A DNA stretch of 60,583 bases from an uncultured virus (IMG/VR IMGVR_UViG_3300034684_000282) (Duplodnaviria; Heunggongvirae; Uroviricota; Caudoviricetes), in IMG/VR virus record IMGVR_UViG_3300034684_000282. One strand, 5' to 3'. The notes below the pieces were generated by a model, which saw only the letters and a program-made list of their open reading frames with translations, was not told the DNA's origin and ran no database searches. Positions 30,413 through 54,167 of this stretch are shown here, in pieces. Both the position numbers and the translations under genes were made by a program. Within the stretch, counting starts at the first letter, position 1. The number at the start of each line of letters is the position of its first letter.

Positions 30413-31327
30413 CTATAAGTTTTCTAAGTTAGTTTGGTGTAGTACAATGAAGATGTCCGTACCGTCTAACTTATTGATGTAGCTGACTAGATTACTACTG
30501 CTGTTTAGAGTATTCTTTAACGCCTGCTTTATGTCATAGTCAGTCACCGGTATAATGCTCATGTGTAGCCAGTACTCTCTGCCGCTCTTTGCCGTGTACT
30601 TGTACTTAAGTTCGGAGTATTCTGCCGCCGCGACTTTTTCCTTAATAGTGTCTAAAACGTAGTCGTCGACGTTTAGTTCAAATATAGCGTTAATCGGTTT
30701 GTTTAGTATCTCCTCCCTCTTGTAGCCGGTTATCTCCGTTAGTTTAGCGTTTGAGTAGATTATCTTCGGTAGCTTACAGCTTTCATTTTTTCTAGATATC
30801 AGGATTCCGTCGCGAGTATTCTCAATTATTGACGCAAACACACCCAAGTACTTGAATGACTTTGCTTCTTCGGTTACGTCGTTGAAAAACAGCACGATAT
30901 TCTTTTTAAAGCCGGCTTTAAAATACGACGGTTGAACACTAATGTACCTTACTCCCTTTAGAGTGTTTATCTTAACGATCTTATCACACGCGGTGTTACC
31001 CCTTTTACTCGAGCGTTTAATTTCTAGGTAATCCTCGAAATTTTCAAACACGCTGAGTAAGCTTATACTCGCTTCCTCAGAGTTTTCCCCGTCATCATTG
31101 CTCACCCTACCCTTTATGAGCTTGTAGAAGTGCTTGTTGTAGTCAACAATCTCGTTACTGTGAGAGTTGACTATACAGACGGGCACCGATATGTTTTTTA
31201 AGCCGTTTGTTAGAGACTGTATGTAACACCTACTTGACTTAATAAACATTAGCAGTGACAGTATTAGTATTGTTAGTATTGACGAGAAAACAGCAGCTAC
31301 TAACAGCGTATTCATTAAAAATTCCAT
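30413..31327 (-). CDS. membrane-anchored tandem PAS-domain protein
   Basis: N-terminal transmembrane helix; PVCIVN...IVDYNKHF; IIENTRDGILIS...IIYSNAKLTEITGYKREEILNK...KSGREYW. Confidence 0.8.
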   Translation of the reverse strand: MEFLMNTLLVAAVFSSILTILILSLLMFIKSSRCYIQSLTNGLKNISVPVCIVNSHSNEIVDYNKHFYKLIKGRVSNDDGENSEEASISLLSVFENFEDYLEIKRSSKRGNTACDKIVKINTLKGVRYISVQPSYFKAGFKKNIVLFFNDVTEEAKSFKYLGVFASIIENTRDGILISRKNESCKLPKIIYSNAKLTEITGYKREEILNKPINAIFELNVDDYVLDTIKEKVAAAEYSELKYKYTAKSGREYWLHMSIIPVTDYDIKQALKNTLNSSSNLVSYINKLDGTDIFIVLHQTNLENL

Positions 31328-31333
31328 CCCTCG

Positions 31334-32119
31334 CTACACTACTATACTAGACTGAGTGTCTCTTAAGTATAGTAGTACCGTTGAGTTAATATCATCTTCT
31401 AGAGCTTGTAGTACTATAGAGATTTCATACAACTTTTCCGTTGGTTTCTTATCCCTATTAATCTCAGTAATTAAACTGTCTATAGTATTATTAATTTTAT
31501 TTTTTAACTCAGCCGACAGTTTCTCATCTACGTTGTGAGACCTGATGTTTTGGTGGACGAAGTCTACGTAGCGTTTTGTTATGTCGCTTAGGGAGTTTTT
31601 AAAGTTAGTGTTGATAATCTGCGACGACTCTTGACTGTAGGTTAGCAGGTACTTTAAGCACTCTTTGAATACTTCGTTCCACAACCCCTCCGTTCTAAGG
31701 TCAAGTATGAGCTTTAGGGCTCTTATGTTGGGCGTTCCCTTTATACTCTCGTTTAACTCTGTCGAACACGCTAGTATTCTCTCCGTGGTTGACTCTATGT
31801 GGCGTATTATCGACTTTATTAGATCATAGTCTTCCTTAAAGTTCTCAGCCATGTCGCCCAGTTCCTTTAAGTGATCGATAGACTCGTTGATGGTGTTTAG
31901 CTTAATCACAGTGATCGGATACAGGAAGATAGTTATTAAGATGTTTGTAATTATTAGGATAACTAGTAGGTACTCCTGGTTAGACAAGTACTCAATGTCT
32001 ATACCTAGTATGTTTAGCCCAACTAGTATTAGTAGGATTATAGTGATTAGAAAGTTTTTTCCGGACACATTATTACCGTCGGAGAATATTTTGTCAAGAA
32101 TTTTGTCGATAAAATTCAT
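31334..32119 (-). CDS. two-TM membrane protein with helical cytoplasmic domain
   Basis: Two hydrophobic helices near the N-terminus. Co-oriented with the PAS gene, 6 bp apart. Confidence 0.65.
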   Translation of the reverse strand: MNFIDKILDKIFSDGNNVSGKNFLITIILLILVGLNILGIDIEYLSNQEYLLVILIITNILITIFLYPITVIKLNTINESIDHLKELGDMAENFKEDYDLIKSIIRHIESTTERILACSTELNESIKGTPNIRALKLILDLRTEGLWNEVFKECLKYLLTYSQESSQIINTNFKNSLSDITKRYVDFVHQNIRSHNVDEKLSAELKNKINNTIDSLITEINRDKKPTEKLYEISIVLQALEDDINSTVLLYLRDTQSSIVV

Positions 32120-32271: not shown

Positions 32272-33399
32272 ATGGCTAAGAGTCTGAAGGCTTTTTTGCA
32301 AAAAACGTATCCAGACGCGATGGATACTGACATAATATCGGAAGTAAGGTACCTTAACACCGAGATACCGACCGTTAACTACGTGATATCGGGTAAACCG
32401 CTGACCGGCGGTCTACCGCTGACGGGAAAAATCACTATAATGTACGGTCCGGAGGGTTGCGGTAAAACAAGTTTTGTCGTTCATATGATCGCGAGAGCAC
32501 AGCGCGCTAGTATCGACGTTGTATACATTGACACGGAGAGGTCGATAACGAGACCCAGGCTGGAGCAGTTCGGGGTTAACGTCGAGGAGCTAAACTACCT
32601 GACTCCGGAAACTATGGAGGAGTGCTTCGACATTATCGAGGCTGTCTGTAGGGAGAAGATGGCAAGCGGCGACAGGGAGCCTGTACTAATAGTTTGGGAC
32701 TCCATAGCGATGACTCCGACTTCCGACGAGATTAACAGAACGTCCGAGGACGTTGAGATCGCGTCTCAAGCTAGGGTGCTGACCCGCAACCTGCGGCGAA
32801 TCAGGGGAAAGATAAAGCGAATTGAAGCCTCGCTACTGTTAGTCAACCAGGCTAGAGCTAACCAAGCAAGGTTTGGAGACTTGTTTACGATGCCCGGTGG
32901 GTACGCGCTGCACCACGCGGCCGACGTTATCCTGCGCGTTAACCGAGTCAAGCCGGACGAGTCGGGGCAGGGGATTAAGATCTCAACGCCAATAAAAAAC
33001 AGGCTCTTTAGACCGTTTCAAAGCACTACCCTGAGGTTTGAGTACACCGACGGCTTTACTAAGGAAAACATAGTCGACGCTTTCTGTGACTTCCTTAAGG
33101 ACATCGAGATACTGGGCACGGCTGGGCCGTACTGCTACTTAGAGACCGACGTGCAGAGGATAGCAAAGAGCGAGGGTATAGACAGTAGGGAAGCTGTTAA
33201 GAAAGCTGACAAGTTTTTTAAGAAGGACTTTGTCAAGCGCTTGATTGAGGATCAAGACTACTACAGTGAGATGCTGAGGGTAGCCGAGGAGTACGTTAAC
33301 ACTAACATTGCTAAAGTTTCCCAGATACTTCTAGACAAAGAGCTGACCGAGGAAGAGTTAAAGTCTATCGACGGAGAGAGTGGAGGGGTGATCCAGTGA
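32272..33399 (+). CDS. recA: RecA/UvsX recombinase
   Basis: GGLP..GKITIMYGPEGCGKT, YIDTE, IVWDSIA, LVNQ, PGGYAL.H. Confidence 0.92.
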   Translation: MAKSLKAFLQKTYPDAMDTDIISEVRYLNTEIPTVNYVISGKPLTGGLPLTGKITIMYGPEGCGKTSFVVHMIARAQRASIDVVYIDTERSITRPRLEQFGVNVEELNYLTPETMEECFDIIEAVCREKMASGDREPVLIVWDSIAMTPTSDEINRTSEDVEIASQARVLTRNLRRIRGKIKRIEASLLLVNQARANQARFGDLFTMPGGYALHHAADVILRVNRVKPDESGQGIKISTPIKNRLFRPFQSTTLRFEYTDGFTKENIVDAFCDFLKDIEILGTAGPYCYLETDVQRIAKSEGIDSREAVKKADKFFKKDFVKRLIEDQDYYSEMLRVAEEYVNTNIAKVSQILLDKELTEEELKSIDGESGGVIQ

Positions 33400-34403
33400 G
33401 TAAAGTAACGCTGCTAGACTACAAGTTAACTATTGGTGAAAAGATTAAGTATATTCATGATAGGTTGAGCTTAGAAAGCATACCGCTGGAGGAGCTCAGT
33501 GGGGTTGTTTTTTCCGAAACCCTCGAAGCTCAGTACCGCATGATGAGGGACCACTTAAACAAGAATACTATTCGAAAAAGGTTTTTTGACCAGAGTTTAA
33601 AAAACAAGGAGCTACTTAACACATACTACAGCCACGCTTATACACACAACCACGTAGCCTTCGAGGACGAAGTTTTTGAGGTGTTAGACGCGGTAAACGG
33701 TTTAAGCGACGTTAGTGAGACTCCTGAAAGAGTTAAATTAAAAAAACTTTTAGTATTGGAAGAGTTAATCGATGTGTATCACTTTTTGTTAGAGTACTCT
33801 TGCCTCTTGAAGGAGCACACTCTGATGCAGATAGAGTGTGCTAAGTACGGCGAGCGAAAGAAGGACTTTACGGTAGCGGACTTAGAGAGGTTTTTAACTC
33901 TCGACGATAACTTCGGTGTAGAGTACTACGAGGGTAGAAAGTACAACGTGTTTGACTTCCTGAGGCTTGAGGGAAAACACGTGTCGTACGACATATTCTC
34001 TAAGGAGTTTCCTTTAAACCTACACAGTATACCGTCTAACTGTAGCGGTAAGCAGGCTCTGTTCTACTTATTTCAGCTAAACCGAGAGTTTGTAAGGAAC
34101 TGTAACTTTAAGGATTGGAAGACGTACTCGGAGGACTTTTACGACGCTGTTAAGTTTGCCGGACTCAACAACGTTGTAAGAAAGATGTATTACGTGTTTA
34201 TGCGAGTGTTTTCTTCCTACGTACACTTTGTCAACGTTTTGTACACCAACGGGGTAAGGTTTGCCAAGTCAAACTACGCTGACTCTCTGCAAGTCATATA
34301 CGGAATCTACATGGCTAAGAGAGAGGAAAACATCAGGCGCCAGCGGAGTGACCCCAGGTATACGGGTGAGAGTAGCGGGGAGGTTGTCGGAGTAGACGTC
34401 TGA
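33396..34403 (+). CDS. dimeric dUTPase / MazG-like NTP pyrophosphatase
   Basis: EVFE...EELIDVYHFL, FKDWK, IYMAKREENIRRQ. Confidence 0.65.
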   Translation: MSKVTLLDYKLTIGEKIKYIHDRLSLESIPLEELSGVVFSETLEAQYRMMRDHLNKNTIRKRFFDQSLKNKELLNTYYSHAYTHNHVAFEDEVFEVLDAVNGLSDVSETPERVKLKKLLVLEELIDVYHFLLEYSCLLKEHTLMQIECAKYGERKKDFTVADLERFLTLDDNFGVEYYEGRKYNVFDFLRLEGKHVSYDIFSKEFPLNLHSIPSNCSGKQALFYLFQLNREFVRNCNFKDWKTYSEDFYDAVKFAGLNNVVRKMYYVFMRVFSSYVHFVNVLYTNGVRFAKSNYADSLQVIYGIYMAKREENIRRQRSDPRYTGESSGEVVGVDV

Positions 34404-35580: not shown

Positions 35581-35655
35581 GGCCCCGTAGTGTAGCGTGC
35601 AGCACAGCGGACTTTCTATCCGCCGGCGCGGGTTCGAATCCCGCCGGGGCTACCA
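35581..35655 (+). tRNA. tRNA-Glu(TTC), atypical
   Basis: Cloverleaf: GGCCCCG/CGGGGCT acceptor plus ACCA; GCGGA-CTTTCTA-TCCGC anticodon arm; GCGGG-TTCGAAT-CCCGC T arm. Confidence 0.85.
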
Positions 35656-36824: not shown

Positions 36825-37604
36825 GTGAGTTTAAAAAACCTAATTGACATACTACCGGAAGAACACTTACTCAGAGTGGCGGACAACCGACCCGCGTTAG
36901 TAGACTGGAGTAAGATCTGCACGCAGATTAGGTTACCCGAAGATTTTATTGAGAGTCATGAGAATTTTATTGATTGGAACTTAGTTTTTACGTATCAGAA
37001 GCTGTCGGGTGAGTTTATTGAAAGACATAAAGATAAAGTAGACTGGAAAGTTATTTCTAAATGCCAGACTTTGTCTGAGGAATTCGTTAAAAAATTCAAG
37101 CATTTAATTGACTGGCACTGTGTTTCTAAACACCAAGCGCTGTCAGAGTCATTCATTGAGAGATTTGCGGACTTAGTTGACTGGGAAACTATCTCTAAGT
37201 TTCAGAGACTATCGGAATCGTTTATTGAGAAACACGATGATAAGATATCCTACGTGACCGTTTCCCGGTATCAGAGACTATCCGAAGCGTTTATTGAACG
37301 GCATAAGGATCAAGTTGACTGGTTTTTTATCTGCGAGTGCCAGACACTGTCCGAACCGTTTATTGAGAGACACGCGGATAGGGTTGACTGGCCGGCTGTT
37401 TCCGAAGCGCAGAGACTATCTGAGTGGTTTATCGACAAGCACGCTGACAAGGTTGAGTGGCACCGCATTTCCCAACACCAAGTACTGTCAGAAGCGTTTG
37501 TTGAAAGGCATAAAAACCGTGTTTTTTGGGTTAACATTTTTGAATATCAGGAAAATCTATCTAGAGAGTTTAAAGAAAGGTATAAAAAATTATTAGAGTT
37601 TTAA
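36825..37604 (+). CDS. 23-aa tryptophan-repeat protein 1 (10 units)
   Basis: VDWxxISxxQxLSExFIExHxDx repeats. GAGGAGG RBS; TGTTATAAT upstream. Confidence 0.9.
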   Translation: MSLKNLIDILPEEHLLRVADNRPALVDWSKICTQIRLPEDFIESHENFIDWNLVFTYQKLSGEFIERHKDKVDWKVISKCQTLSEEFVKKFKHLIDWHCVSKHQALSESFIERFADLVDWETISKFQRLSESFIEKHDDKISYVTVSRYQRLSEAFIERHKDQVDWFFICECQTLSEPFIERHADRVDWPAVSEAQRLSEWFIDKHADKVEWHRISQHQVLSEAFVERHKNRVFWVNIFEYQENLSREFKERYKKLLEF

Positions 37605-37803
37605 ACTATGGTTTGTAGTTTTATAAAACTATGATTTTTTATCTTACTTATTACAGATGTAACAAAAGTTTAAACTTTTAGTAGGGGGAGTTCAACTAGC
37701 TAGGACTCTCCTTCATTTTTTTCTATAAACGGCTAATATTGTTAAATTAATATAGTTCACAGCTAAATATTAAAGATAAGAGTTTCGTTTGGGAGTGATA
37801 GAA

Positions 37804-38613
37804 GTGGGTCTGAGAGACTTAGCCAGTGTGCTACCGGTAGAGCACGCGCTTAGAGTGGCTGACAGTAAGCCCGAGTTAGTTGATTGGACTAAAATTTGCT
37901 ACACCGCGAAGTTGCCTGAGTCATTTATTGAGAAGCACAAGAACAGAGTCGACTGGCACTACGTCTCCAACTCTCAGAAGCTGTCTGAGGAGTTTATTGA
38001 GAAACACAAGGATGAAGTTGACTGGGTGGCTGTCTGCGAGTACCAGAAGCTTTCGGAGGAGTTTATCGACAGGCACAGAGACAGGGTTGTCTGGTCTCGA
38101 GTGTCTAAATATCAAAAGCTGTCTCCGTCATTTATCGACAAGCACGCTGACAGGGTTGACTGGATGCTTGTCTCGAAGTACCAGGAGTTACCTGAGTCGC
38201 TTATTGAAAAGTATAAAGACAGAGTCAATTGGTACTACGTTTCTATGTATCAGAAATTGTCCGAGGAATTTATCGAGAGGCATAGAAACTTTGTTGACTG
38301 GCCGGCAGTTTCCGCACACCAGAAACTGTCTGAGGAGTTTATAGAGAGGCATAGGGACGAGGTAGATTGGAACGCTGTTTCCGAACACCAGGAGCTTTCT
38401 GAGAAGTTTATCGAAAAGTTTAAAGATAGAGTAAATTGGGAAGCTATCTCCATATACCAGAGGTTGTCCGAGGAGTTTATCGAGAGGCACGCTGACAGGG
38501 TTGACTGGTTCCACATCCTAAACTCTCAGAAGCACTTGTCTAGTGAGTTTAGAAAGAAGCATGCGTGGAGAATCGCACCGTCACTTAAGAAACACCCAGT
38601 AAAGAAACGGTAG
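37804..38613 (+). CDS. tryptophan-repeat protein 2 (10 units)
   Basis: Same N-cap and repeat; the GTG start aligns with the paralogs. Confidence 0.9.
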   Translation: MGLRDLASVLPVEHALRVADSKPELVDWTKICYTAKLPESFIEKHKNRVDWHYVSNSQKLSEEFIEKHKDEVDWVAVCEYQKLSEEFIDRHRDRVVWSRVSKYQKLSPSFIDKHADRVDWMLVSKYQELPESLIEKYKDRVNWYYVSMYQKLSEEFIERHRNFVDWPAVSAHQKLSEEFIERHRDEVDWNAVSEHQELSEKFIEKFKDRVNWEAISIYQRLSEEFIERHADRVDWFHILNSQKHLSSEFRKKHAWRIAPSLKKHPVKKR

Positions 38614-38629
38614 CTTTGGAGGGATATGC

Positions 38630-39127
38630 ATGAGTTTAGAAGACCTAGCGAGTGTCCTACCTGTAGAACTCGCGCTCAAAGTAGCTGAGTCTAAGCCTGA
38701 GTTGATAAACTGGCACTGGCTATCTAGAAACGTTAGACTACCGGAGGAGTTAATCGCGAAGTATAAGGACTACGTTAACTGGCAGCTTATCTCAAGATAT
38801 CAAACACTGTCCGAGGAGTTTATCGATCGATACAGTGACTTAGTCGACTGGCCAGCCGTCTCTCAGCACCAGAAACTCTCGGACTCGTTTATTGAAAAGC
38901 ACCGAGACAAGGTTTACTGGTACGCCATTGCCAAGTACCAGGAGTTGTCTGAACCGCTCATTGAGAAGTATGGGGAATTACTAGGTTGGGACCTTGTTTC
39001 TATGTATCAGAAGCTGTCTGAGGAGTTTATTAAGAAGCATAGGAACAAGCTCGACGGGTACTACATTGCTAAAAATCAAAAATTACCTGGAAAACTCAGG
39101 GAAAGAGTAAGAAAGTATTTTAATTAA
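38630..39127 (+). CDS. tryptophan-repeat protein 3 (6 units)
   Basis: Same N-cap and repeat. Confidence 0.9.
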   Translation: MSLEDLASVLPVELALKVAESKPELINWHWLSRNVRLPEELIAKYKDYVNWQLISRYQTLSEEFIDRYSDLVDWPAVSQHQKLSDSFIEKHRDKVYWYAIAKYQELSEPLIEKYGELLGWDLVSMYQKLSEEFIKKHRNKLDGYYIAKNQKLPGKLRERVRKYFN

Positions 39128-39136
39128 ATAAACGAC

Positions 39137-39338
39137 AGAAGTCGCCCACTTCTATAAGTGGGTGATGAATGTTGCAAAAATATATAAAAAATGCTACAAT
39201 TATTATAGCGAAAACCAAGCTAATTAGCCATGTAGATGGTATATGCGGGGACGGAACAGCCCTTTGAGCGTGGGTAACCTGGTAACAGAAGTTACCTTGA
39301 CCACGAAGCCACCACTTCTATAAGTGGGGGTAGTTCAC
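39137..39338 (+). mobile_element. non-autonomous IS200/IS605-family remnant (both end hairpins, no tnpA/tnpB)
   Basis: CCACTTCTATAAGTGG hairpin at both ends; terminates in GTAGTTCAC; internal TTGCAA-N17-TACAAT. The left boundary is approximate. Confidence 0.8.
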
Positions 39339-39367
39339 AATATATTTAATTATTGTGGAGTAAAGAG

Positions 39368-40003
39368 ATGAGTCTAAAAGACTTAGTAAATATATTACCA
39401 GAAAAATATATGTTTAAGATAGCAGAGGTTAAGCCTGAGTCAGTAGACTGGGAGTATCTTTCTGCTAACGTCAAGCTGTCGGAGAAGTTTATTAAAAGGT
39501 ACGGCGACAGGGTCAACTGGAAGAGCGTCTCCCAGTACCAGCAGCTGTCTGAAGCGTTTATTGAAAGGCATGCCAATAGAGTTGACTGGGAGTATATATC
39601 TAGGTTTCAAAAACTGTCTGAATCGTTTATTGAAAGGCACGCAGACAGAGTTGACTGGGACAACGTTTCTATATACCAAAAGCTGTCTGAATCGTTTATT
39701 GAGAGACATACTAACAGAGTTGACTGGTACTATGTCTCTCAGTACCAAGAGCTGTCTGAATCGTTTATCGAGAAGCATAAAAACGACGTTTACTGGTACT
39801 GTATATCGCGGTACCAGGACCTGTCTGAGGAATTTATCGACAAGTATAGAGATATGGTTGACTGGGAAGTAGTCTCTAAGTATCAGCAGTTGTCCGAAGA
39901 GTTTATCGAAAAGCATGAGGATTTAGTTGACTGGGAAAACGTATTTCGCTACCAAGATATATCTAGAGAGTTTAGAGAAAGGTACCAACATAAATTACAG
40001 TAA
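39368..40003 (+). CDS. tryptophan-repeat protein 4 (8 units)
   Basis: Same N-cap and repeat. Confidence 0.9.
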   Translation: MSLKDLVNILPEKYMFKIAEVKPESVDWEYLSANVKLSEKFIKRYGDRVNWKSVSQYQQLSEAFIERHANRVDWEYISRFQKLSESFIERHADRVDWDNVSIYQKLSESFIERHTNRVDWYYVSQYQELSESFIEKHKNDVYWYCISRYQDLSEEFIDKYRDMVDWEVVSKYQQLSEEFIEKHEDLVDWENVFRYQDISREFRERYQHKLQ

Positions 40004-40071
40004 GTTTAAGTTTTAAACAGTAGTAGGAGTTTGGTTGCTAGAGAAAAGACTCTAGTTTGGAGGGTTAAACA

Positions 40072-40851
40072 GTGAGTGTTAGGGACTTAATGGATGTGCT
40101 ACCAGACGAGTACAAGTTTAAGCTGATGGATGCTAGGCCGGAGCTGTTTGACTGGCGTAGTATTTCAAACGAGTTTAAACTCTCGGAGTCGTTTATTGAG
40201 AAACACAAGGACAGGGTTGATTGGTCGAATGTCTCTAGGTACCAGCAACTGTCCGAACCGTTTATCGAGAAGTACGCAGACAGGGTTGACTGGGAGCAGA
40301 TTTCGGAGAGCCAGCGGTTGACCGAACCCTTTATTGAAAAGTTTAAGGATAGAGTTGACTGGGAAAATATCTCCCGCTACCAAAAACTGTCCGAGAAATT
40401 TATCAACAAGTATGCTGATAGAGTCGATTGGTACTACATCTCGCGGTATCAAAAACTGTCGGAACCATTTATCGAGAAGCACGCTGACAAGCTTAACTGG
40501 AACAACATCTCCCGCTACCAAAAGTTGTCCGAAGCGTTTATCGAAAAGCACGCTGACAAGGTTGACTGGGAGTCTATCTCCGCGTACCAAAGACTGTCGG
40601 AACCCTTTATTGAAAAGTTTAAGGACCGGGTTGACTGGGGGCTCGTTTCTGAATTTCAGAAACTGTCCGAGCCGTTTATTGAAAAGCACAAGGATCTAGT
40701 CAGCTGGTACTTTATCTCCGCACACCAGAAGCTGTCCGAGGAGTTCATCGAAAAGCACGCCGGCAAAGTTGACTGGGAGAACATATTCAACCACCAAAAG
40801 TTGTCTAAAAAGTTTAGAGATAAGTATTACTATAAAGTGCGTGTAATCTAA
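40072..40851 (+). CDS. tryptophan-repeat protein 5 (10 units)
   Basis: Same N-cap and repeat. Confidence 0.9.
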   Translation: MSVRDLMDVLPDEYKFKLMDARPELFDWRSISNEFKLSESFIEKHKDRVDWSNVSRYQQLSEPFIEKYADRVDWEQISESQRLTEPFIEKFKDRVDWENISRYQKLSEKFINKYADRVDWYYISRYQKLSEPFIEKHADKLNWNNISRYQKLSEAFIEKHADKVDWESISAYQRLSEPFIEKFKDRVDWGLVSEFQKLSEPFIEKHKDLVSWYFISAHQKLSEEFIEKHAGKVDWENIFNHQKLSKKFRDKYYYKVRVI

Positions 40852-40928
40852 AGTTTAAGCAATAGTAGAAATAGAAAAAAGTTTATGGAAAGATCAAGAC
40901 GGCTTTTTAGAAAGGGTTGGAGATAAAA

Positions 40929-41498
40929 ATGAGTTTAAGAGACTTGATAAATGTGTTACCGGAAGAACATGTACTTAAGATAATAGAGACTAAACCTGAG
41001 TTAGTAGATTGGTCAGAAATTTCTGCTAATGTCAGGTTGTCGGAGGAGTTCATTGAGAGATACGCAGACAGAGTTGATTGGTTCAACATTTCTAAATATC
41101 AAAAGTTATCAGAACCATTTATAGAAAAGTACAAAGACATGCTTAACTGGTACAATATTTCAAAATATCAGAAACTATCTGAAGAGTTTATCGATAAATA
41201 CAGAAACAAAGTTGACTGGGATAGCATCTCCAGTTATCAGAAACTGTCCGAACCTTTTATTGAAAAATACAAGAACTATGTTAACTGGTTGTATATTTCT
41301 ATGCATCAGAAGTTATCCGAAGAGTTTATCGAAAAGCATGAGTACGATGTTAATTGGTCAGTTATTTCTAGGTATCAAAGGCTATCTGAGTTGTTTATCG
41401 AAAAACATAGTAGAGACGTAGATTGGTATAATATTTTGTCCTATCAGAAGCATTTGTCTAACAAGTTTAGGGCAAAACACAGTAAACGTATCCAATAG
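40929..41498 (+). CDS. tryptophan-repeat protein 6 (7 units)
   Basis: Same N-cap and repeat. Confidence 0.9.
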   Translation: MSLRDLINVLPEEHVLKIIETKPELVDWSEISANVRLSEEFIERYADRVDWFNISKYQKLSEPFIEKYKDMLNWYNISKYQKLSEEFIDKYRNKVDWDSISSYQKLSEPFIEKYKNYVNWLYISMHQKLSEEFIEKHEYDVNWSVISRYQRLSELFIEKHSRDVDWYNILSYQKHLSNKFRAKHSKRIQ

Positions 41499-41527
41499 AA
41501 AAATAATAATTTTATAGGAGTAAAAAA

Positions 41528-41959
41528 ATGAGTTTAAAAGACTTGGTACGTACACTACCGGAAAATTACTTACTTAAATTAGATGATAGTAAGCCTGAGT
41601 TAATTGATTGGACTAAAATTTGCGATACCGTAAAACTGTCTAAATCATTTATTGAGAAATACAAGAACAGAATTGATTGGCACTACATTTCTAGATCTAA
41701 AAAACTATCTGAAAAGTTTATTGACAAGTACAAGGACTGGGTTGATTGGGAGGAAATTTCTAAGTACCAGAAACTATCTGAACCATTTATTGAAAAACAC
41801 AAGGATCTAGTTAACTGGAAGCAAATTGCGGAGCGCCAAGAACTGTCTGAATCGTTTATTGAGAAGCACAGTGACAAAGTAGATTGGTTCACGATTTTTG
41901 TCTATCAGAAACACTTATCCGATGAGTTTAGGGCAAAACACAGTAAACGTATTCAGTAA
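41528..41959 (+). CDS. tryptophan-repeat protein 7 (5 units)
   Basis: Same N-cap and repeat. Confidence 0.9.
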   Translation: MSLKDLVRTLPENYLLKLDDSKPELIDWTKICDTVKLSKSFIEKYKNRIDWHYISRSKKLSEKFIDKYKDWVDWEEISKYQKLSEPFIEKHKDLVNWKQIAERQELSESFIEKHSDKVDWFTIFVYQKHLSDEFRAKHSKRIQ

Positions 41960-41988
41960 AGGGATGTTAATTTTTGGGAGGAGTAAAG

Positions 41989-42694
41989 GTGAGTCTAAGA
42001 GATTTAGTCAGCATGCTACCGATGGAGTACCTGCTTAAAGTGATAGATAGAAAACCTGAGTTAGTAAACTGGAGAGAACTTTCTGCTAATGCTGAGCTGT
42101 CGGAGGAGTTTATCGAAAAATACAGTGACAGGGTTAACTGGAAAGATATCTCCCAGTACCAACAGTTGTCTGAACCATTCATCGAAAGGCACGCTGGTAA
42201 AGTTGACTGGAAGTACATTTCTAGGTTTCAGAAACTGTCCGAATCCTTTATCGAAAAGCACGCCGACGAAGTTGACTGAGACAGCGTTTCTATGTACCAA
42301 AAACTTTCTGAGTCGTTTATCGAGAAACACACTGACAGAGTCAACTGGATTAATGTCTCTATCTACCAAACTTTATCGGAGGAGTTTATTGAAAGGTACA
42401 AAGATAAGGTTAACTGGTTTGCTATTTCCGCTTATCAGAAACTCTCAGAACCTTTTATCGAAAAGTTTAGGAACAGGGTTGATTGGAAAGCTATATCTAT
42501 GCATCAGAAGTTGTCCGAGTCATTCATCGAAAAGTATAAGGACAGGGAGGGTTAACTGGTACTTTATTTCTGAGTACCAGAAGCTGTCCGAAGAATTTAT
42601 TGAAAGGCATAGAGATAAAGTTTATTGGGAAATTATTTTTAAGTATCAAGACTTGTCTGACGAGTTTAGAAAAAAATGGAAAAATAGGAGATAA
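41989..42694 (+). pseudogene. tryptophan-repeat pseudogene (9 units)
   Basis: TGG>TGA at 42277-42279 and a 4-bp duplication (GACAGGGAGGGTT) near 42547. Confidence 0.85.
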
Positions 42695-42697
42695 AAA

Positions 42698-43420
42698 ATG
42701 AGTTTAAGAGATTTAACTGCTGTGCTGCCCAAAGAGTACCTAGACAAAGTCGTTAAAAGTAAGCCTGAACTAGTTGACTTTGACTACATTTCTACATACC
42801 GCGAGTTGCCCGAAGAGTTTATTGAAAAGTATAGAGACTACGTTGACTGGCTAGCTATTTCTAACCATCAGAAGTTGTCCGAACCGTTTATCGAGAAGTA
42901 CAGGGACAGGGTAGACTGGGAGAGTATCTCAAAAAATCAACGCCTCTCAGAAGAGTTTATTGAAAAGTACAGTGACAAAGTTGACTGGTACTACATCTCC
43001 GAGTACCAGAAGCTGTCTGAGTCGTTCATTGAGAGGCACGCGGATAAGGTTAACTGGTACTCTATCTCAAGGGATCAGCAGCTGTCTGAGGCGTTTATCG
43101 AAAAGTACAGTGATAGAGTCGACTGGGACTCTATCTTTAGGTTTCAGAGGTTGTCTGAACCGTTCATTAGAAAGTTTGTTAAGAAATTTAAAAACAACGT
43201 TGACTGGCGCAATATTTCTATGTACCAGGAGCTGTCGGAAGACTTCATTGAGAGGTACCGAAACTATGTTGACTGGGACGCTATTTCGCTGCGACAAAAT
43301 TTATCGGAGGAGTTTGTTAAGAAGTACAGTGACAAGCTTGACTGGTTTTACATTTCTAGAAACAAGAAGTTGTCTGAGAAGTTTAAAGAGAGAGTAAAGA
43401 CTTACTTTAATAAGAAATAG
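42698..43420 (+). CDS. tryptophan-repeat protein 9 (9 units)
   Basis: Same N-cap and repeat; one 4-aa insertion. Confidence 0.9.
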   Translation: MSLRDLTAVLPKEYLDKVVKSKPELVDFDYISTYRELPEEFIEKYRDYVDWLAISNHQKLSEPFIEKYRDRVDWESISKNQRLSEEFIEKYSDKVDWYYISEYQKLSESFIERHADKVNWYSISRDQQLSEAFIEKYSDRVDWDSIFRFQRLSEPFIRKFVKKFKNNVDWRNISMYQELSEDFIERYRNYVDWDAISLRQNLSEEFVKKYSDKLDWFYISRNKKLSEKFKERVKTYFNKK

Positions 43421-43475
43421 TAGATCTAAAATAGAAAGTTTTTATAAAAAAAATAATAGTATAATTGTATATAAA

Positions 43476-43608
43476 GTTTCTGGATACCAAAAGTTATCCA
43501 AGAAGTTCATCGACAAGCAATAGAGATAAACTTAGCTGGTCGTTTATCTCTTTGAATGAAAAAATACCCGAGAAAGTTAAGGAAAGAGTGAAAGTTTATT
43601 TTGACTAA
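43476..43608 (+). pseudogene. 3' remnant of a tryptophan-repeat gene
   Basis: VSGYQKLSKKFIDK, a frameshift, then RDKLSWSFISLNEKIPEKVKERVKVYFD*. Confidence 0.75.
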
Positions 43609-43632
43609 GTTATTTTTTAAGGGGAGATAAGA

Positions 43633-44268
43633 GTGAGTTTATATGATTTAATTAATATATTACCCACAGAGTATATGCTTAAACTGTTGGATACTAGACC
43701 TGACTTAGTAGATTGGAAAAAAATTTCTAGTGAATGTAAGCTGTCGGAGGAGTTTATTGAAGAGCACAAGGACAAGATAGACTGGAAACTTATCTCCGGG
43801 TATCAAGACCTGTCCGAAGACTTCATTGAAAAGTATAAAGACAGGCTGGACTGGCTGTACATCGCTATGCACCAGAAGCTGTCTGAACCGTTTATTGAAA
43901 AGTACAAAGACAGGTTGAACTGGTACACCGTTTCTATGTGCCAAAAGCTGTCGGAGGAGTTTATTGAAGAGCACAAGGACAAGATAGACTGGAAACTTAT
44001 CTCCGGGTATCAAGACCTGTCCGAAGACTTCATTGAAAAACATAAGGATAGGGTAGTTTGGATGCTTATCTCTAAGTACCAGCAGTTGTCTGAACCGTTT
44101 ATTGAAAAGTACAAAGATAGGGTTGACTGGTATCAGATATCTGGTAGTCAGAAGCTGTCTGAATCGTTTATCGAAAAGCACGCAGATAGAGTTCACTGGG
44201 ACCAGATTTTTAAATACCAAAATTTATCTAAAGAGTTTAGAAAAAAGTATGAGAAAGTATATCTTTAA
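43633..44268 (+). CDS. tryptophan-repeat protein 11 (8 units)
   Basis: Same N-cap and repeat. An exact internal duplication of about 95 bp starts at 43738 and 43945, offset 207 = 3 units. Confidence 0.9.
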   Translation: MSLYDLINILPTEYMLKLLDTRPDLVDWKKISSECKLSEEFIEEHKDKIDWKLISGYQDLSEDFIEKYKDRLDWLYIAMHQKLSEPFIEKYKDRLNWYTVSMCQKLSEEFIEEHKDKIDWKLISGYQDLSEDFIEKHKDRVVWMLISKYQQLSEPFIEKYKDRVDWYQISGSQKLSESFIEKHADRVHWDQIFKYQNLSKEFRKKYEKVYL

Positions 44269-44367
44269 CCACTATGTGAAGAATAAACAACGCATGCGTA
44301 GTTAATAACTACTAGTCAATAATAAACTTAAATATTGGAAAGAGTCTTAACTTTGGAGGACTAAGTT

Positions 44368-44660
44368 TTGAGTGTTAAGGACCTGATAGACATACTGCCG
44401 GAAGAGTATAAGTTTAAAGTCATAGATGCTAGGCCAGGGTTGTTTGACTGGGGTAGGATCTCTACTGAATTCAAACTCTCAGAATCGTTTATTGAGAAAC
44501 ACAAAAACAGAGTCGACTGGTGGCATATTTCAAAATACCAGAAACTGTCTGAATCCTTTATCGAGAAGTTTAGTGATAGGGTTGACTGGAGTAACATCTC
44601 AGCCTATTAAAGGCTGTCTGACTCGTTTATCGAGAAACATAAGGATAAAATACACCAATA
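44368..44660 (+). pseudogene. truncated tryptophan-repeat gene
   Basis: N-cap nearly identical to 40072. CAA>TAA at 44608; repeat sequence continues briefly and there is no C-cap. Confidence 0.8.
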
Positions 44661-44706: not shown

Positions 44707-45726
44707 GTGTATTCAGTCTTAGACAAGATTAACATGATCTTAGCTAGCATTAAGCTGAGTGATTACAAGAAGTATTACGGTAAGGCACACAAGAAGCGGG
44801 GGGAGAACAAGGTTGTCATCAAGTACCTAGACTTCTTCTTCGGCGGTCCGGCTGACAAGAAGGGTCGGGACCGCATCTACCTGCCGTACGACGTGACTCA
44901 GAGCGAGGAGTTTATTAAGCTACGAGACAAGATAGCGTCGTTTATAGCGAAGGAAGGGTTTACCATCAGCGACTTCCAGCAGGGTCTCGCTAAGAAGACT
45001 GGGAGCAACAACCAGTACAAGATAGGTAAGATACTAAACTCTATGAGGAAGAAGTACCCGGTGGAGGCGGACGAACTCCTAAAACTCTACGCTGAGTCAA
45101 AAAGCGGTGAGTCAGACTACCTGATAGTTGTTTCAAGACACCCTTACGACGTTGCGGGAGCCAGCACCGGTCGAAGCTGGGCGCACAATTCTTGCATGTC
45201 TCTAGAGTACCGTGAACGCAACACGGGTGCCGTTCAGTGGAAGACTGTCCCTCACGCCATCGAGCTGGGGGCGATGGTAGCGTTCCTAATCCGCAAGGAC
45301 GACAAGAACATCAACGACCCGCTGGCTAGAATATTCATCAAGCCCTACTTTAACGAGTCAGAGACGGCGATAGTCTACAAGCCGGACCAGACCATCTACG
45401 GTAAGTACGACAAGCTGTTTTTGTCAATCGTTAACGAGTGGGTTGAGGAGAAGAATAAGGAGGCTGCTAACGAGTTCAGGCACGCGCTGGTTGACGTGTA
45501 CACTCTGGGTAAGGGAATCTACGACCAAGAGGGTAAGAGGTCAATACTTAAGGTCAAGGACTTGAGTGGAGACGTAACCGACGAGGAGTTGATGAATGTA
45601 GTTAAGTCCTTAGCTAAGATGGACAGGGATGTTATCGTTGAAACGGTGTCTGAGATTAAAAAGAGCAGGCCTGACATAGTGGACAGGCTATACAACGCCA
45701 TCGTTGAGTTTCTAATTAAGAGTTAA
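44707..45726 (+). CDS. conserved large-phage hypothetical protein
   Basis: SRHPYDVAGASTGRSW..SCM...PLARIFIKPY. Confidence 0.7.
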   Translation: MYSVLDKINMILASIKLSDYKKYYGKAHKKRGENKVVIKYLDFFFGGPADKKGRDRIYLPYDVTQSEEFIKLRDKIASFIAKEGFTISDFQQGLAKKTGSNNQYKIGKILNSMRKKYPVEADELLKLYAESKSGESDYLIVVSRHPYDVAGASTGRSWAHNSCMSLEYRERNTGAVQWKTVPHAIELGAMVAFLIRKDDKNINDPLARIFIKPYFNESETAIVYKPDQTIYGKYDKLFLSIVNEWVEEKNKEAANEFRHALVDVYTLGKGIYDQEGKRSILKVKDLSGDVTDEELMNVVKSLAKMDRDVIVETVSEIKKSRPDIVDRLYNAIVEFLIKS

Positions 45727-45993: not shown

Positions 45994-46305
45994 ATGCCTA
46001 AGAAGCGCGAGTTTTCAGCGAAGGATCTAGATAAGATAATTCTCAGCGGTAAGTCAATACGCGCGGCTGCGTTTGAAGACGAAGCCGAGGAAACCAACGC
46101 TGAGGAAATTCTTGAAGAGCTCTTAGAGCAGATTCTCTTAGAAACGGACATTATAAGCGTTGACAGAGTATCTACGTTTGAGGAAGCTGGAGTCATGACT
46201 AAGAACAGGGGCTTAGTGTTTGAAGTGTCTGAGTTGGAAGACACCAACACCGGAAAGATAATAGAGGGACCCTTTGAGTTTTATATAACTATCAGTAGCC
46301 GGTAG
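45994..46305 (+). CDS. acidic hypothetical protein (paralog A)
   Basis: TFEEAGVMTKNRGLV...GPFEF. Confidence 0.7.
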   Translation: MPKKREFSAKDLDKIILSGKSIRAAAFEDEAEETNAEEILEELLEQILLETDIISVDRVSTFEEAGVMTKNRGLVFEVSELEDTNTGKIIEGPFEFYITISSR

Positions 46306-46314
46306 AATAGGAGA

Positions 46315-46668
46315 GTGGTAAAAGTGAAAGAATATAAAGATATATCTCCAGATAATTTAGATAGAATAATGGCGAAGTTAGTAGGGTCAAGGGAAGTTGA
46401 TGATAATTTCAATGACGACAGCGAAGACGAGGTAGACCCCGAGTGGTTAGAGGAGCAGAGTGACCCAGAGAAAGTGTTTGAGTATAACTTAGCCCAAGCC
46501 TTACTTGAGTACGACCCAGGCGTTATGTCCATCGCTACGTTTAACGAAGTTGGGGTTTTGACCGGCAACGCGGGGTTAGTAGTCGAGGTAAAAAAGATGG
46601 AGAGTGAGTCAGGCGAAGTACTGAGGGGGCCCTTTGAGTTTAGGGTGACTATAGTTCGGAGTAAGTAG
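46315..46668 (+). CDS. acidic hypothetical protein (paralog B)
   Basis: TFNEVGVLTGNAGLV...GPFEF. Confidence 0.7.
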   Translation: MVKVKEYKDISPDNLDRIMAKLVGSREVDDNFNDDSEDEVDPEWLEEQSDPEKVFEYNLAQALLEYDPGVMSIATFNEVGVLTGNAGLVVEVKKMESESGEVLRGPFEFRVTIVRSK

Positions 46669-46748: not shown

Positions 46749-47057
46749 GTGATAGATAAAATGATAAAGAAAAAACGTGTTGATAAAACGTCGACAAGCA
46801 CACGCAAAATTGTAGCAGCTAAAAATAATATTAACCTAGTAAGGAGTAGGAAAAATACAAGTTTCGATATAAGTGACATCGACGAAGCGTCTATCATCTT
46901 AGACGACATCAATACGAGAGACTATCCTGACTTTTCGGACGCCTACATTTCTTACGCGGAGTTTAAGGACGGTACTCCTTTAACTGACGAGCAGTTGGAT
47001 GAACTTAACAGAGATTCTAGCTTTATTCACGAAATGGTGATGAAGCTGTTTAGTTAG
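46749..47057 (+). CDS. conserved phage hypothetical protein
   Basis: DYPDFSDAYISYA...LTDEQLDELN. Confidence 0.7.
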   Translation: MIDKMIKKKRVDKTSTSTRKIVAAKNNINLVRSRKNTSFDISDIDEASIILDDINTRDYPDFSDAYISYAEFKDGTPLTDEQLDELNRDSSFIHEMVMKLFS

Positions 47058-49944: not shown

Positions 49945-51021
49945 GTGGATTTTAGGTACATCCCTACGTACGAAGAGTGCTTGAGTATAGTTGACAGCAA
50001 CGCTAGCTTTGTAGCAAAGAGGGAGGAGCTTGACGGTGTTCCTATCGTCTCCTTCGCGTACAGGCTGATACTATTGGAAGATTTTGCAAAGTTTAAGGGT
50101 GCGAGAAACCTAAGGGGTATTACCTTTAGGGAAGACACCGGTGAGCTTGTTGCCCTGCCGTTCCACAAGTTCTGGGGTCTAAACGAAAACGAGTACACCC
50201 AGCTAGATAGGGTTAAGTGTAAGGGAATCTTGCGTGTTACGGAGAAGTACGACGGGTCGCTGGTGTACTTTTTTATGCTTAGCGGTAAGCTCTACTGTAA
50301 GACGAAGCTCAACTCGTTTTCCGAGCAGGCCGCTCGGGCTATGAGTATCGTAGAAGAGAATAGAGCTTTGAGAGATAGTATCGTAGAGCTTATACACGGC
50401 AGCTACACCCCGCTGTTTGAGTACATTGCGCCGACTAACCAAGTCGTGATACCGTACGCCGAGGAGCGGCTGAAGTACATCTGTTCTAGAAGCATGACAG
50501 ACGGCACCTACAACTTTGACTACTTCGAGGGCTGCGACCCCGTCGACACGCTCCCTCTCGAGAGTCTAGACTCCGTTGTTAGCATGGTTAAAGACTACCG
50601 CGGCCACGAGGGTCTCGTCGTAGTGTTTAAAGACCACGACATGATTAAGGTAAAGACCGAGGAGTACACCCAGCTGCACAAGATTGCGTCTAACATCTTA
50701 AACGAGAGTACCCTAGCCTACTTAATACTAACTGAGAGCTTAGACGACGCTAAAAATACCCTCCTCTCAGCTAACTCTAACCTACTGGAGTACGTTAGCA
50801 GTTTTGAAAGGAAAGTAGTTAACTCTTACAACAAGTTCATTAAAGCCGCGGAAAACTTTTACAAGCTGAATAGAGAGCTAACTAGAAAAGACTATGCCGT
50901 TAAGGCTCAAGCAGAGTTAGACCAGACTTCCTTCGGTCTAACCATGGAGTTGTACTCTAAGGGTAAGATTGACGAGAGTAAGTTTAGGGAAAAATTTGTT
51001 AATAAGAAACTTTGGAATTAG
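49945..51021 (+). CDS. T4 Rnl1-like RNA ligase
   Basis: RGITF, PFHKFW.LNE, EKYDGSL, FEY, EGLVV, IKVKT..Y. Confidence 0.92.
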   Translation: MDFRYIPTYEECLSIVDSNASFVAKREELDGVPIVSFAYRLILLEDFAKFKGARNLRGITFREDTGELVALPFHKFWGLNENEYTQLDRVKCKGILRVTEKYDGSLVYFFMLSGKLYCKTKLNSFSEQAARAMSIVEENRALRDSIVELIHGSYTPLFEYIAPTNQVVIPYAEERLKYICSRSMTDGTYNFDYFEGCDPVDTLPLESLDSVVSMVKDYRGHEGLVVVFKDHDMIKVKTEEYTQLHKIASNILNESTLAYLILTESLDDAKNTLLSANSNLLEYVSSFERKVVNSYNKFIKAAENFYKLNRELTRKDYAVKAQAELDQTSFGLTMELYSKGKIDESKFREKFVNKKLWN

Positions 51022-51053
51022 TTAATAAAATTTATAAGCGTGAAAGGGAGAGT

Positions 51054-52124: not shown

Positions 52125-52151
52125 GTTTGACCGAATACCTAAACTGTAGCT

Positions 52152-52181
52152 GTGTACAAACCCAACGGTTTGTGGTATAAT
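52152..52181 (+). promoter_or_regulatory. early promoter
   Basis: GTGTACA...TGTGGTATAAT. Confidence 0.75.
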
Positions 52182-52214
52182 ATTACTAGAAAATATAAGA
52201 AAAAAGGGAGTCAA

Positions 52215-52436
52215 ATGACTGCGAGGGAATTTTGCTGGAATTACGCTGTAACGTACGATATACCTATGGAAGCGGTACTTCACCTTTTGGACATCTACCT
52301 TGCTGAGGTAGCGCCGGTGCAGTATGTTGACTATCCAAACAGCGAGCTACCTGAAGAGTTTGTCACAGCTCTTGACGAGCCGGCCAACTTTGACGAATTT
52401 TTTAAAGCGTTTTTAGAGGAGGTGTGTGACGAGTAG
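52215..52436 (+). CDS. hypothetical protein
   Basis: ATG after a GGGAG RBS, downstream of the promoter. Confidence 0.6.
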   Translation: MTAREFCWNYAVTYDIPMEAVLHLLDIYLAEVAPVQYVDYPNSELPEEFVTALDEPANFDEFFKAFLEEVCDE

Positions 52437-52438
52437 TT

Positions 52439-52681: not shown

Positions 52682-52705
52682 AAAGTATAAGGAGGGAAGT
52701 TTTAA

Positions 52706-53023: not shown

Positions 53024-53077
53024 TGTTTCTATAACATTAATTTATATTTTGCAACTATAAGAAAGGAGAGGACGACA

Positions 53078-54121: not shown

Positions 54122-54167
54122 GAAAAAATAAGATAAATAGTATTAAGATTTTAAGGGGAAGGTTGCC

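What the first reader, a model, noticed from the sequence alone, without database searches (positions are those of the whole stretch)
36825..44660. Tandem array of 12 paralogous 23-aa tryptophan-repeat loci: a diversifying repertoire of modular binders
Seen: about 8 kb holds 9 intact genes, 2 pseudogenes and 1 remnant. Each intact gene is a conserved 25-aa N-cap, then 5-10 units of VDWxxISxxQxLSExFIExHxDx, the last modified as a C-cap. Unit counts for the intact genes are 10, 10, 6, 8, 10, 7, 5, 9 and 8. Known: the repeat resembles the 'tryptophan repeat' family of entomopoxviruses, whose function is unknown. Inference: this is a birth-and-death gene accordion of solenoid binders, probably aimed at variable host targets such as defence proteins or nucleic acids. 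I know of no characterised phage system with this layout.
Basis: partly seen in the sequence, partly recalled or inferred. Interest (0 to 1): 0.88.

Follow-up and report, generated by a model that had tools for sequence, protein, structure and literature searches.

The report
Phage tryptophan-repeat gene accordion
An uncultured bacterial virus carries a row of twelve related genes, three of them broken, for coil-shaped repeat proteins with a fixed backbone and three changeable residues per repeat; the row differs between close relatives and belongs to a large, named but unstudied viral family that probably serves as a set of interchangeable protein binders.

Summary
The array is real as described: 9 intact genes, 2 pseudogenes, 1 remnant, and the unit counts are right. 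It lies in an uncultured myophage of at least 131 kb. The proteins belong to the named but uncharacterised viral 'tryptophan repeat' family (MSV027: E 6e-31, TM 0.83; PHROG 3532). The layout is not unique: LPJP1, BpSp and phage G carry similar rows, and this scan met the family before in giant viruses and another phage.

Added here: (1) Three relatives 96-97% identical in the flanking gene carry different terminal paralogs, and alleles of one paralog swap middle units, so the accordion is supported. (2) 100 of the 120 best homologs carry a C-terminal domain with an ADP-ribosyltransferase-like fold; others carry RING or IBR. The repeat therefore looks like a target-recognition module. (3) The window's copies lack that domain and have a lineage-specific N-cap. 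(4) One homolog fuses the repeat to a relative of the flanking gene 44707, and a complex model gives weak support for binding (0.49 against 0.01).

Best reading: a variable protein-binder repertoire (0.6). Targets, expression and positive selection are not shown.

The parts
36825..37604 (+). g1, intact, N-cap + 10 units
   Evidence: PHROG 3532 E 4e-71; contigs of other runs at 97-99% (X5, X8)
37804..38613 (+). g2, intact, N-cap + 10 units (GTG start at 37804 inferred from the N-cap register)
38630..39127 (+). g3, intact, N-cap + 6 units
39127..39340 (+). Miniature non-coding derivative of an IS200/IS605 element (left-end hairpins; right end like the 3' end of tnpB elements), inserted between g3 and g4; limits approximate
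   Evidence: depth about 100-fold above the flanks in runs X2, X5, X15 and about 20-fold in X8, with loose ends at both limits; the same left end precedes a tnpA-like frame in L016 and L018 (frame recognised by eye); hairpin z -4.3; an 80% identical copy sits at another site in L025 and L027
39368..40003 (+). g4, intact, N-cap + 8 units; units 3-4 closest to those of g8 (84%, 86% DNA)
40072..40851 (+). g5, intact, N-cap + 10 units; the protein folded and searched
40929..41498 (+). g6, intact, N-cap + 7 units; used in the complex model
41528..41959 (+). g7, intact, N-cap + 5 units
41989..42694 (+). g8, pseudogene, 9 units, in-frame stop at 42277 and frameshift near 42548
   Evidence: same letters in X2 contigs
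42698..43420 (+). g9, intact, N-cap + 9 units (one of 27 aa)
43478..43609 (+). g10, decayed remnant (1.5 units + C-cap, two frames)
   Evidence: (E 5e-5)
43633..44268 (+). g11, intact, N-cap + 8 units; 95-bp exact internal duplicate at 43738 and 43945, three units apart
44368..44660 (+). g12, pseudogene, N-cap + 3 units, stop at 44608; N-cap sister to g5; 3' tail shared with the last gene of L019
   Evidence: support 97/99
44707..45726 (+). Flanking gene, 339 aa, no named family, conserved SRHPYD..ST.R.W..SCM motif; fixed landmark of the array in relatives; candidate shared partner
46749..47057 (+). Small acidic gene whose homolog P0252 carries about 7 tryptophan-repeat units before the same C-terminal domain
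   Evidence: (70% over 70 aa)

Best explanation
A repertoire of intracellular protein binders kept as a recombining gene array. SHOWN: each gene is N-cap + 5-10 helix-loop-helix units + C-cap and models as a solenoid. The scaffold is under strong purifying selection, while positions 4, 5 and 8 of each 23-aa unit vary freely. Gene content at the array's 3' end and the middle units of alleles differ among relatives, and copies die. INFERRED: positions 4, 5 and 8 (i, i+1, i+4 of the first helix) stack into one variable, often aromatic strip that is the binding surface. Turnover is by ordinary unequal recombination between 69-bp units. Because homologs join the same repeat to ART-like, RING, IBR or F-box domains, the repeat is the part that picks a target. 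The window's copies have no attached enzyme, so they either block targets by binding alone or recruit a partner in trans through the constant N-cap. Likely targets are variable host proteins, such as defence components; that last step is a guess from context.
For: Fold: pLDDT 96.4, pTM 0.83. Entropy over 64 internal units is 3.7, 3.4 and 3.1 bits at positions 4, 5, 8 and under 0.5 at W3, Q10, L12, S13, E14, F16, I17; the same three positions vary most in 476 homolog units (there the scaffold positions were fixed by my pattern). pN/pS is 0.02-0.08 at those seven scaffold positions and 0.74-0.96 at positions 4, 5, 8 (55 units). Aromatic residues: 20 of 64 at position 4 and 14 of 64 at position 5. 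Fusions: C-terminal domain in 100 of 120 best homologs and 26 of 132 further cluster representatives; that domain aligns to ART-fold chains (tRNA 2'-phosphotransferase, Arr, PARP, anti-CRISPR 6KYF; best Z 5.9, rmsd 3.4, 80 aligned); RING in 1 and IBR in 1 of 132; F-box in 32% of one giant-virus cluster and in AMV254 (PMC7728225, passage). Dynamics: 3 of 3 relatives at 96-97% in the flank gene with upstream DNA have other terminal paralogs (best protein identity to any window gene 47-65%); alleles L021 and L024 share units 1-3 and two later units but differ in the middle, 9 against 10 units.
Against: No target, binding or phenotype is shown. No pN/pS above 1: synonymous sites are saturated (pS 0.76), and positions 15, 21 and 23 are nearly as free (0.74-0.78), so relaxed constraint explains the pattern as well as diversifying selection. 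Among alleles, positions 4, 5, 8 had only 3 replacement and 2 silent changes; the excess at positions 4-9 (10:7 against 4:23, Fisher p 0.006) was defined after looking and rests on non-independent changes. The paralogs are old, and g1-g2 persist at 97-99% in other runs, so turnover is not uniform. I had no model coordinates, so the surface strip is inferred from helix periodicity. ART-fold Z-scores are under 6, and no conserved acidic residue stands out in the last strands, so activity is unproven. Relatives are 2-4 kb metagenome contigs, where repeats can be misassembled; L028 and L025 turn into unrelated DNA upstream.
Confidence: 0.6

Rival explanations
1. Adaptor library for a co-encoded partner (a specific form of the best explanation): each paralog docks by its constant N-cap on the product of gene 44707, which supplies an activity, as F-box proteins do for a ubiquitin ligase.
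For: The gene adjoins a repeat gene in 7 of 7 relatives at 70% or more identity that have 300 or more bases upstream, and has repeat genes downstream in 6 of 6 of the 70-88% group. P0172 fuses a 44707-like domain to the repeats (29% over 175 aa, E 7e-16). Other 44707 homologs carry DUF4116 or HEAT-like repeats (3 and 1 of 26). The N-cap profile hits only the 11 window genes and 11 frames of relatives that share the 44707 gene. Complex model of 44707 with g6: score 0.49, best of 3 controls 0.01, runs agree in at least 88% of contacts, partner pLDDT at least 90; the mark was reached by 116 of 157 solved complexes and 2 of 215 mismatches.
Against: The tool calls the pass weak: at 0.60 or under fell only 18 of the 157 solved complexes and both passing mismatches. 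No interface was returned, so a role of the N-cap is untested. My alignment of 44707 included the fusion P0172, 33 of whose repeat-region residues fell in query columns, a possible bias. The fusion is 1 of 252 repeat homologs, and 0 of 25 homologs of 44707 carry the repeat. L030 and L031 (31-32% identity) show no repeat gene upstream. No activity is known for 44707. A second neighbour, 46749, is also fused to repeats in one homolog, so fusions may only reflect local recombination. Neighbourhood among close relatives is largely shared descent.
Confidence: 0.2
2. Nearly neutral expansion: one or two copies matter, and the rest are by-products of recombination among 69-bp units that drift and decay.
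For: 3 of 12 loci are dead, a mobile element sits in the row, and no positive selection is shown. Units of one gene are barely more alike than units of different genes (64.1% against 63.1% DNA, permutation p 0.011).
Against: Nine frames stay open with scaffold pN/pS of 0.02-0.08 while synonymous sites are saturated, which needs long selection on many copies. Rows recur in unrelated phages.
Confidence: 0.12
3. Sequence-reading nucleic-acid binders (PPR, TALE or PUF logic), one base per unit.
For: Solenoid with a few variable residues per unit; a weak match to a designed PPR protein (Z 4.7, rmsd 8.0, 204 aligned); K or R at position 8 in 26 of 64 units; some ART-fold matches of the fused domain act on RNA.
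Against: 61 different triplets at positions 4, 5, 8 and 50 different pairs at 4-5 among 64 units, far from a small code alphabet; net charge at pH 7 is zero or negative in 7 of 9 proteins.
Confidence: 0.08

Closest known systems
Tryptophan repeat gene family (annotation label; entomopoxvirus MSV027, MSV029, MSV205, AMV029; PHROG 3532)
   Same: Same unit and predicted fold: MSV027 E 5.7e-31, TM 0.83, rmsd 1.6, 56% identity over 228 columns; 9 of 9 intact genes hit PHROG 3532 at E 1e-35 or better; multi-copy; function unknown (PMC12484599, passage).
   Different: No RING, F-box or ART-like domain; a 25-aa N-cap found only in this phage lineage; all copies in one row within the 131 kb seen.
Repeat rows of cultured jumbo phages: Listeria phage LPJP1, Bacillus phages BpSp and G
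   Same: LPJP1: 9 adjacent repeat frames in 6.7 kb. BpSp: gp123-127 (5) and gp053-059 (7 frames, 6 annotated as tryptophan repeat). Phage G: 6 frames in 4.6 kb (only these stretches were read, not whole genomes).
   Different: They lack this N-cap. Here variation among close relatives is documented. The LPJP1 paper has no occurrence of 'tryptophan', 'paralog' or 'duplicat' in its main text.
Repeat + ART-like (DUF7666-related) phage proteins, the commonest form among the best homologs
   Same: Same repeat, about 55-65% local identity; also in tandem rows (3 genes in L008).
   Different: They end in a ~110-aa ART-fold domain (Pfam DUF7666 E 0.009 for P0091, below its cutoff; an Atlas cluster with 100% DUF7666). 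The profile of that domain finds nothing in the window or the 71 kb upstream.
AcrIF11 (PDB 6KYF) and T4 Alt/ModA/ModB, phage ADP-ribosyltransferases
   Same: The fused domain of homologs shares the fold weakly (Z 3.9, rmsd 3.2, 72 aligned); 6KYF is AcrIF11, which modifies a CRISPR complex (10.1101/2024.08.26.609590, passages). This is a model for how a repeat-guided ART could work.
   Different: Applies to homologs, not to the window's proteins; no activity shown.
LRV, HEAT, alphaRep and PPR solenoids; poxvirus ankyrin/F-box families and gene accordions (the last two largely recalled)
   Same: Stacked helix pairs with a variable face; expansion by tandem duplication.
   Different: Only weak structural likeness (1LRV Z 5.7, rmsd 5.7, 187 aligned; best Z 7.0); no Foldseek match at E 0.001 or better.

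Membership tests
Tryptophan repeat gene family (viral annotation label) | Tandem 23-aa unit with fixed W, I and L (definition recalled from the MsEPV genome paper, not read here) | tested here: met
   85 units in 11 genes; W3 in 62 of 64, L12 in 64 of 64 internal units
Tryptophan repeat gene family (viral annotation label) | Sequence and structure match to named members | tested here: met
   MSV027 E 5.7e-31, TM 0.83, 56% identity; BpSp annotated members by tblastn, E 9e-48
Tryptophan repeat gene family (viral annotation label) | Several paralogs per genome with differing unit numbers | tested here: met
   5-10 units in 9 intact genes
PHROG 3532 | Profile match | tested here: met
   9 of 9 intact genes, E 1e-35 to 3e-107
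Repeat + ART-like fusion subgroup (not filed here) | C-terminal ~110-aa ART-fold domain | tested here: not met
   Each window gene ends in a C-cap; profile finds 0 hits in the window and L012-L015, 4 in L006 and L008
RING- or F-box-fused subgroup of eukaryotic viruses (not filed here) | RING or F-box domain | tested here: not met
   No such Pfam family at E 0.1 for 9 of 9 genes; the N-cap's L..LP.E motif recalls an F-box start by eye only
PPR / TALE / PUF base-reading repeats (not filed here) | Small set of recurring code residues per unit | tested here: not met
   61 triplets and 50 pairs among 64 units
PPR / TALE / PUF base-reading repeats (not filed here) | Sequence-specific nucleic-acid binding | not testable with these tools
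   needs SELEX or gel shifts
LRV / HEAT-like solenoids | Structural match to solved members | tested here: inconclusive
   Z 5.7 (1LRV) to 7.0, within the range of common arrangements
Diversity-generating retroelement | Reverse transcriptase plus template/variable repeat pair | tested here: inconclusive
   No reverse transcriptase among the 49 + 34 frames scanned and no long near-identical pair other than the 95-bp duplicate in g11; no dedicated search, and the genome is incomplete
Gene accordion / birth-and-death family | Gene content and unit number vary among close relatives; dead copies present | tested here: met
   3 of 3 relatives at 96-97% differ at the 3' end; alleles of 9 and 10 units; short contigs only
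Gene accordion / birth-and-death family | Variation is adaptive (positive selection or fitness effect) | tested here: inconclusive
   pN/pS 0.74-0.96 at variable sites, saturated; few allelic changes

The most novel reading that the evidence does not exclude
A bacterial virus has split a 'variable receptor plus modifying domain' protein into a library of swappable receptors and one shared partner: the repeat-only paralogs dock through their constant N-cap on the product of gene 44707 and aim it at different host proteins, a phage counterpart of the F-box/SCF design, re-dealt by gene and unit exchange between strains.
Probability: 0.2. Interest if true: 0.85.

Novelty: new variant of a known kind. 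Interest (0 to 1): 0.55.

Why it matters
The family is very large (7,076 clusters at 50% identity reach E 0.001) and spans phages and large eukaryotic viruses, yet I found no functional study, no Pfam model and no solved structure. This locus gives a bounded test: nine natural variants of one scaffold, three variable positions per unit, and a named candidate partner. If they bind host defence proteins, they are a recombining counter-defence repertoire and a natural binder scaffold comparable to alphaRep or DARPin. The link to an ART-like domain gives the commonest phage form a testable activity. If they do nothing, the result is an ordinary decaying gene family.

Tried and rejected
Nearest held record G001 lacks the repeat, but it overlaps window 1-19072 at 100% and ends there: it is the same genome, not a relative without the array.

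Expression: contigs of RNA run X15 lie on g1 and g2 (6 and 10 differences, depth 2.6-3.8) and on flanking genes. Contigs cannot show transcription, so I draw nothing from them. Low cover of genes 4-11 in X8 is not evidence of absence. Joints in that table come mostly from high-depth contigs of other organisms and were not used. I laid 4 of the 20 runs listed.

Solved structures: Foldseek gave no match at E 0.001 for g5 or P0031. The sequence search hit engineered OspA and Agd3 only, which I did not follow up and do not use. Nothing was found for 44707. The absence of a strong match does not show a new fold.

ART-like partner in trans: L014:3380-4171 looks ART-like by eye but does not match the fused domain (probability 0.2%; no hit).

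Viral-contig scans with 44707, g1 and g6 found no relatives. The promoter and terminator scan was at chance level (14 against 17.5, 9 against 6.5). Rfam gave only the tRNA and a sub-threshold tmRNA hit on the miniature element. The N-cap tree is mostly unresolved (2 of 16 branches well supported). The ungapped window comparison was spoiled by indels and is not used. My first motif count of the C-terminal domain (86 of 120) undercounted; the profile count (100 of 120) replaces it, and that profile was built from 82 of these homologs.

Host not identified: the IS left end matches three genome contigs (Spirochaetota, uncultured, Tissierellaceae), a lead only. Particle proteomics for phage G's copies was not found in the supplements I could search (annotation rows only).

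Literature searches that found no functional study. Subscription journals and bioRxiv supplements are outside the library, and the BpSp genome paper did not come up.
Full report
SETTING. The window is part of an uncultured contractile-tailed phage: baseplate, tail-fibre and lysis genes at 550-26765, then recombinase, RNA ligase, nucleotidyltransferase and DAHP synthase genes. Record G001 overlaps window 1-19072 at 100% and adds 70 kb upstream, with T4-like capsid, portal, terminase and polymerase genes, so the genome is at least 131 kb. The best capsid matches are only 26-35% identical. The host is unknown.

OBSERVATION. Confirmed in full: nine intact genes with 10, 10, 6, 8, 10, 7, 5, 9 and 8 units, two pseudogenes and one remnant, all on the + strand. 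A two-unit profile hit 14 frames of the window, all within the array, none in the upstream 71 kb and none in 20 shuffles. Run X2, possibly the source, reads the same letters across the lesions. A ~213-bp derivative of an IS200/IS605 element sits between g3 and g4.

ANATOMY. g5 models as a solenoid of two short helices per unit (pLDDT 96.4). In 64 internal units, seven positions are almost fixed and positions 4, 5 and 8 are the most variable (3.7, 3.4, 3.1 bits). They are i, i+1 and i+4 of the first helix, so I infer one exposed strip; I could not inspect coordinates. The second helix is fixed in charge pattern (acidic at 18 in 59 of 64, basic at 19 in 63 of 64). The scaffold has pN/pS 0.02-0.08, the three variable positions 0.74-0.96, and positions 15, 21 and 23 0.74-0.78, against saturated synonymous sites. 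That shows constraint on the scaffold but does not separate relaxed from diversifying evolution. The paralogs are old: units are about 63-64% identical in DNA within and between genes, and the only long exact repeat is 95 bp inside g11.

FAMILY. The model's best match among viral structures is MSV027 'tryptophan repeat gene family protein' (E 5.7e-31, TM 0.83, rmsd 1.6, 56% identity). All nine genes hit PHROG 3532; none reaches a Pfam cutoff. The family is large: 2,537 of 8,000 candidates scored and 7,076 clusters at 50%. In GenBank phages 26 of 50,697 records match. Rows exist in LPJP1 (9 frames), BpSp (5 and 7) and phage G (6 in 4.6 kb), and in IMG/VR loci L007 and L008. The phage G paper calls the family 'of unknown function' (PMC12484599; passages and supplement rows seen). 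No strong match to a solved structure was found.

DYNAMICS. A scan of metagenomes with the flanking gene 44707 gave 14 loci, 11 at 70% identity or more. L019, L026 and L028 (96-97%) have upstream DNA, and all three end the array with paralogs absent from the window: best protein identity 47-65%, best DNA identity 72-76% over 100 bases or more. L019 shares only the last stretch of g12 with the window. The last gene of L026 is second to last in L019 (96.5% over 227 bases), so a gene was gained or lost. In the six loci at 70-88%, repeat genes continue downstream of the flank gene, unlike the window, L025 and L027. Five of these six hold alleles of one paralog: L021 and L024 share units 1-3 (93-99%) and two later units, but the middle units differ and the counts are 9 and 10. 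At the 5' end g1 and g2 are conserved at about 97-99% in runs X5 and X8. These are short contigs and misassembly cannot be excluded, but the pattern recurs across separate contigs.

WHAT THE REPEAT IS JOINED TO. 100 of the 120 best homologs end in a ~110-aa domain, as do 26 of 132 further representatives. A model of P0031 (pLDDT 95.6) aligns this domain with ART-fold chains: tRNA 2'-phosphotransferase, Arr, PARP domains, bacterial ART toxins and AcrIF11, best Z 5.9, rmsd 3.4, 80 aligned. Single scores are modest; the agreement of the rows covering this domain is the evidence. Conserved residues include K178, S216 and R252, with no evident catalytic glutamate (canonical pattern recalled). Other homologs carry RING (P0140) or IBR (P0177). 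A giant-virus cluster carries F-box in 32% of members, and AMV254 is reported with an F-box (PMC7728225, passage). In both virus groups the repeat is thus paired with protein-modifying modules, which is how substrate-recognition solenoids are used (established knowledge; inference for this family). The jumbo-phage survey PMC7824862 (passages only) discusses phage ARTs but showed no passage on this repeat under my search terms.

WHAT IS PARTICULAR HERE. The window's genes have no such domain, and none is found in the 131 kb. They have a 25-aa N-cap that is confined to this lineage among the sequences I hold. The simplest reading is a capping element. A bolder one is a docking handle. Gene 44707 is a fixed neighbour, is fused to the repeats in 1 of 252 homologs (P0172, E 7e-16), and its other homologs carry other helical repeats. 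A complex model of 44707 with g6 scored 0.49 against a best control of 0.01; runs agreed in at least 88% of contacts and partner pLDDT was at least 90. The mark was reached by 116 of 157 solved complexes and 2 of 215 mismatches, but at 0.60 or under by only 18 of the 157 and by both mismatches. This is weak support, with no interface given and a possible bias from P0172 in the alignment. I put the adaptor model at 0.2.

MECHANISM. Most likely (0.6, including the adaptor form) the proteins are made during infection, and each presents a different strip that binds a host protein, blocking it or bringing a partner to it. Recombination among units and genes renews the set, and unused copies decay. 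Shown: architecture, constraint, turnover and fusion partners. Inferred: surface geometry, binding, targets, expression and benefit. Rivals are near-neutral expansion (0.12) and base-reading repeats (0.08; disfavoured by 61 different triplets in 64 units).

EARLIER NOTES OF THIS SCAN. None by sequence or place. By words, 21 findings in at least 18 genomes name the family; the eight shown are giant viruses, and one further note concerns a wetland phage with at least 14 genes. They agree with my reading but are unchecked and not counted as support. I saw them after noting the adaptor idea and submitting the complex job.

VERDICT. Real, and a member of a named but unstudied family in a layout already present in cultured jumbo phages. 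It is a new variant by its enzyme-less, N-capped form, with documented turnover and a testable partner. Interest 0.55.

Noticed in passing
window 39127-39340; L025:1060-1284; L027:756-980: A miniature IS200/IS605 derivative sits in the array; an 80% identical copy sits in two relatives at a site that is empty in the window (about 45954), just 3' of TTTAA and without a target duplication. Its right part resembles the 3' end of tnpB elements, so it may make a guide-type RNA (untested).
   Followed up: partly
window 46749-47057: Homolog P0252 has about 7 tryptophan-repeat units before the same C-terminal domain (70% over 70 aa) and a weakly similar N-terminus, so the repeat block enters or leaves neighbouring genes.
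   Followed up: partly
window 26774-27841 and L013:10345-11412: Two paralogs (PHROG 12810) with motifs that look like ADP-ribosyltransferase motifs by eye; no Pfam or NCBIfam hit.
   Followed up: no
window 28352-30331: 659-aa protein with an N-terminal NMN adenylyltransferase-like domain, suggesting NAD salvage.
   Followed up: no
window 44707-45726 and L013:11419-12930: A second copy of the 44707-type domain (33% identity) lies elsewhere in the genome with a different C-terminal part.
   Followed up: partly
L015:534-1604, L013:17954-18559, window 33396-34403: A ThyX, a divergent thymidylate-synthase-like protein and a nucleotide pyrophosphohydrolase-like protein together hint at a modified DNA base.
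   Followed up: no
window 49945-55127: RNA ligase, HD/kinase protein and RlaP nucleotidyltransferase form an RNA-repair cluster; a pentapeptide-repeat gene lies within it.
   Followed up: no
window 30413-32119: Two minus-strand genes in a plus-strand region: a PAS-domain protein and one with a weak HEPN-type hit (E 0.001, far below cutoff).
   Followed up: no
window 59767-60583: DAHP synthase with an N-terminal extension, cut by the window end; unusual cargo and a possible host clue.
   Followed up: partly
window 45994-46668: Two adjacent small acidic genes share a C-terminal stretch by eye, a second small paralog pair.
   Followed up: no
window 43738-44088: In run X2 the contig over one copy of the 95-bp duplicate has depth 55 against about 38-40 on the flanks; two full copies would give about double, so the population may be mixed. 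Weak.
   Followed up: no
window 35581-35655: tRNA-Glu(TTC).
   Followed up: no
L014:3380-4171: 264-aa protein whose N-terminal part looks ART-like by eye but does not match the fused domain's profile.
   Followed up: partly
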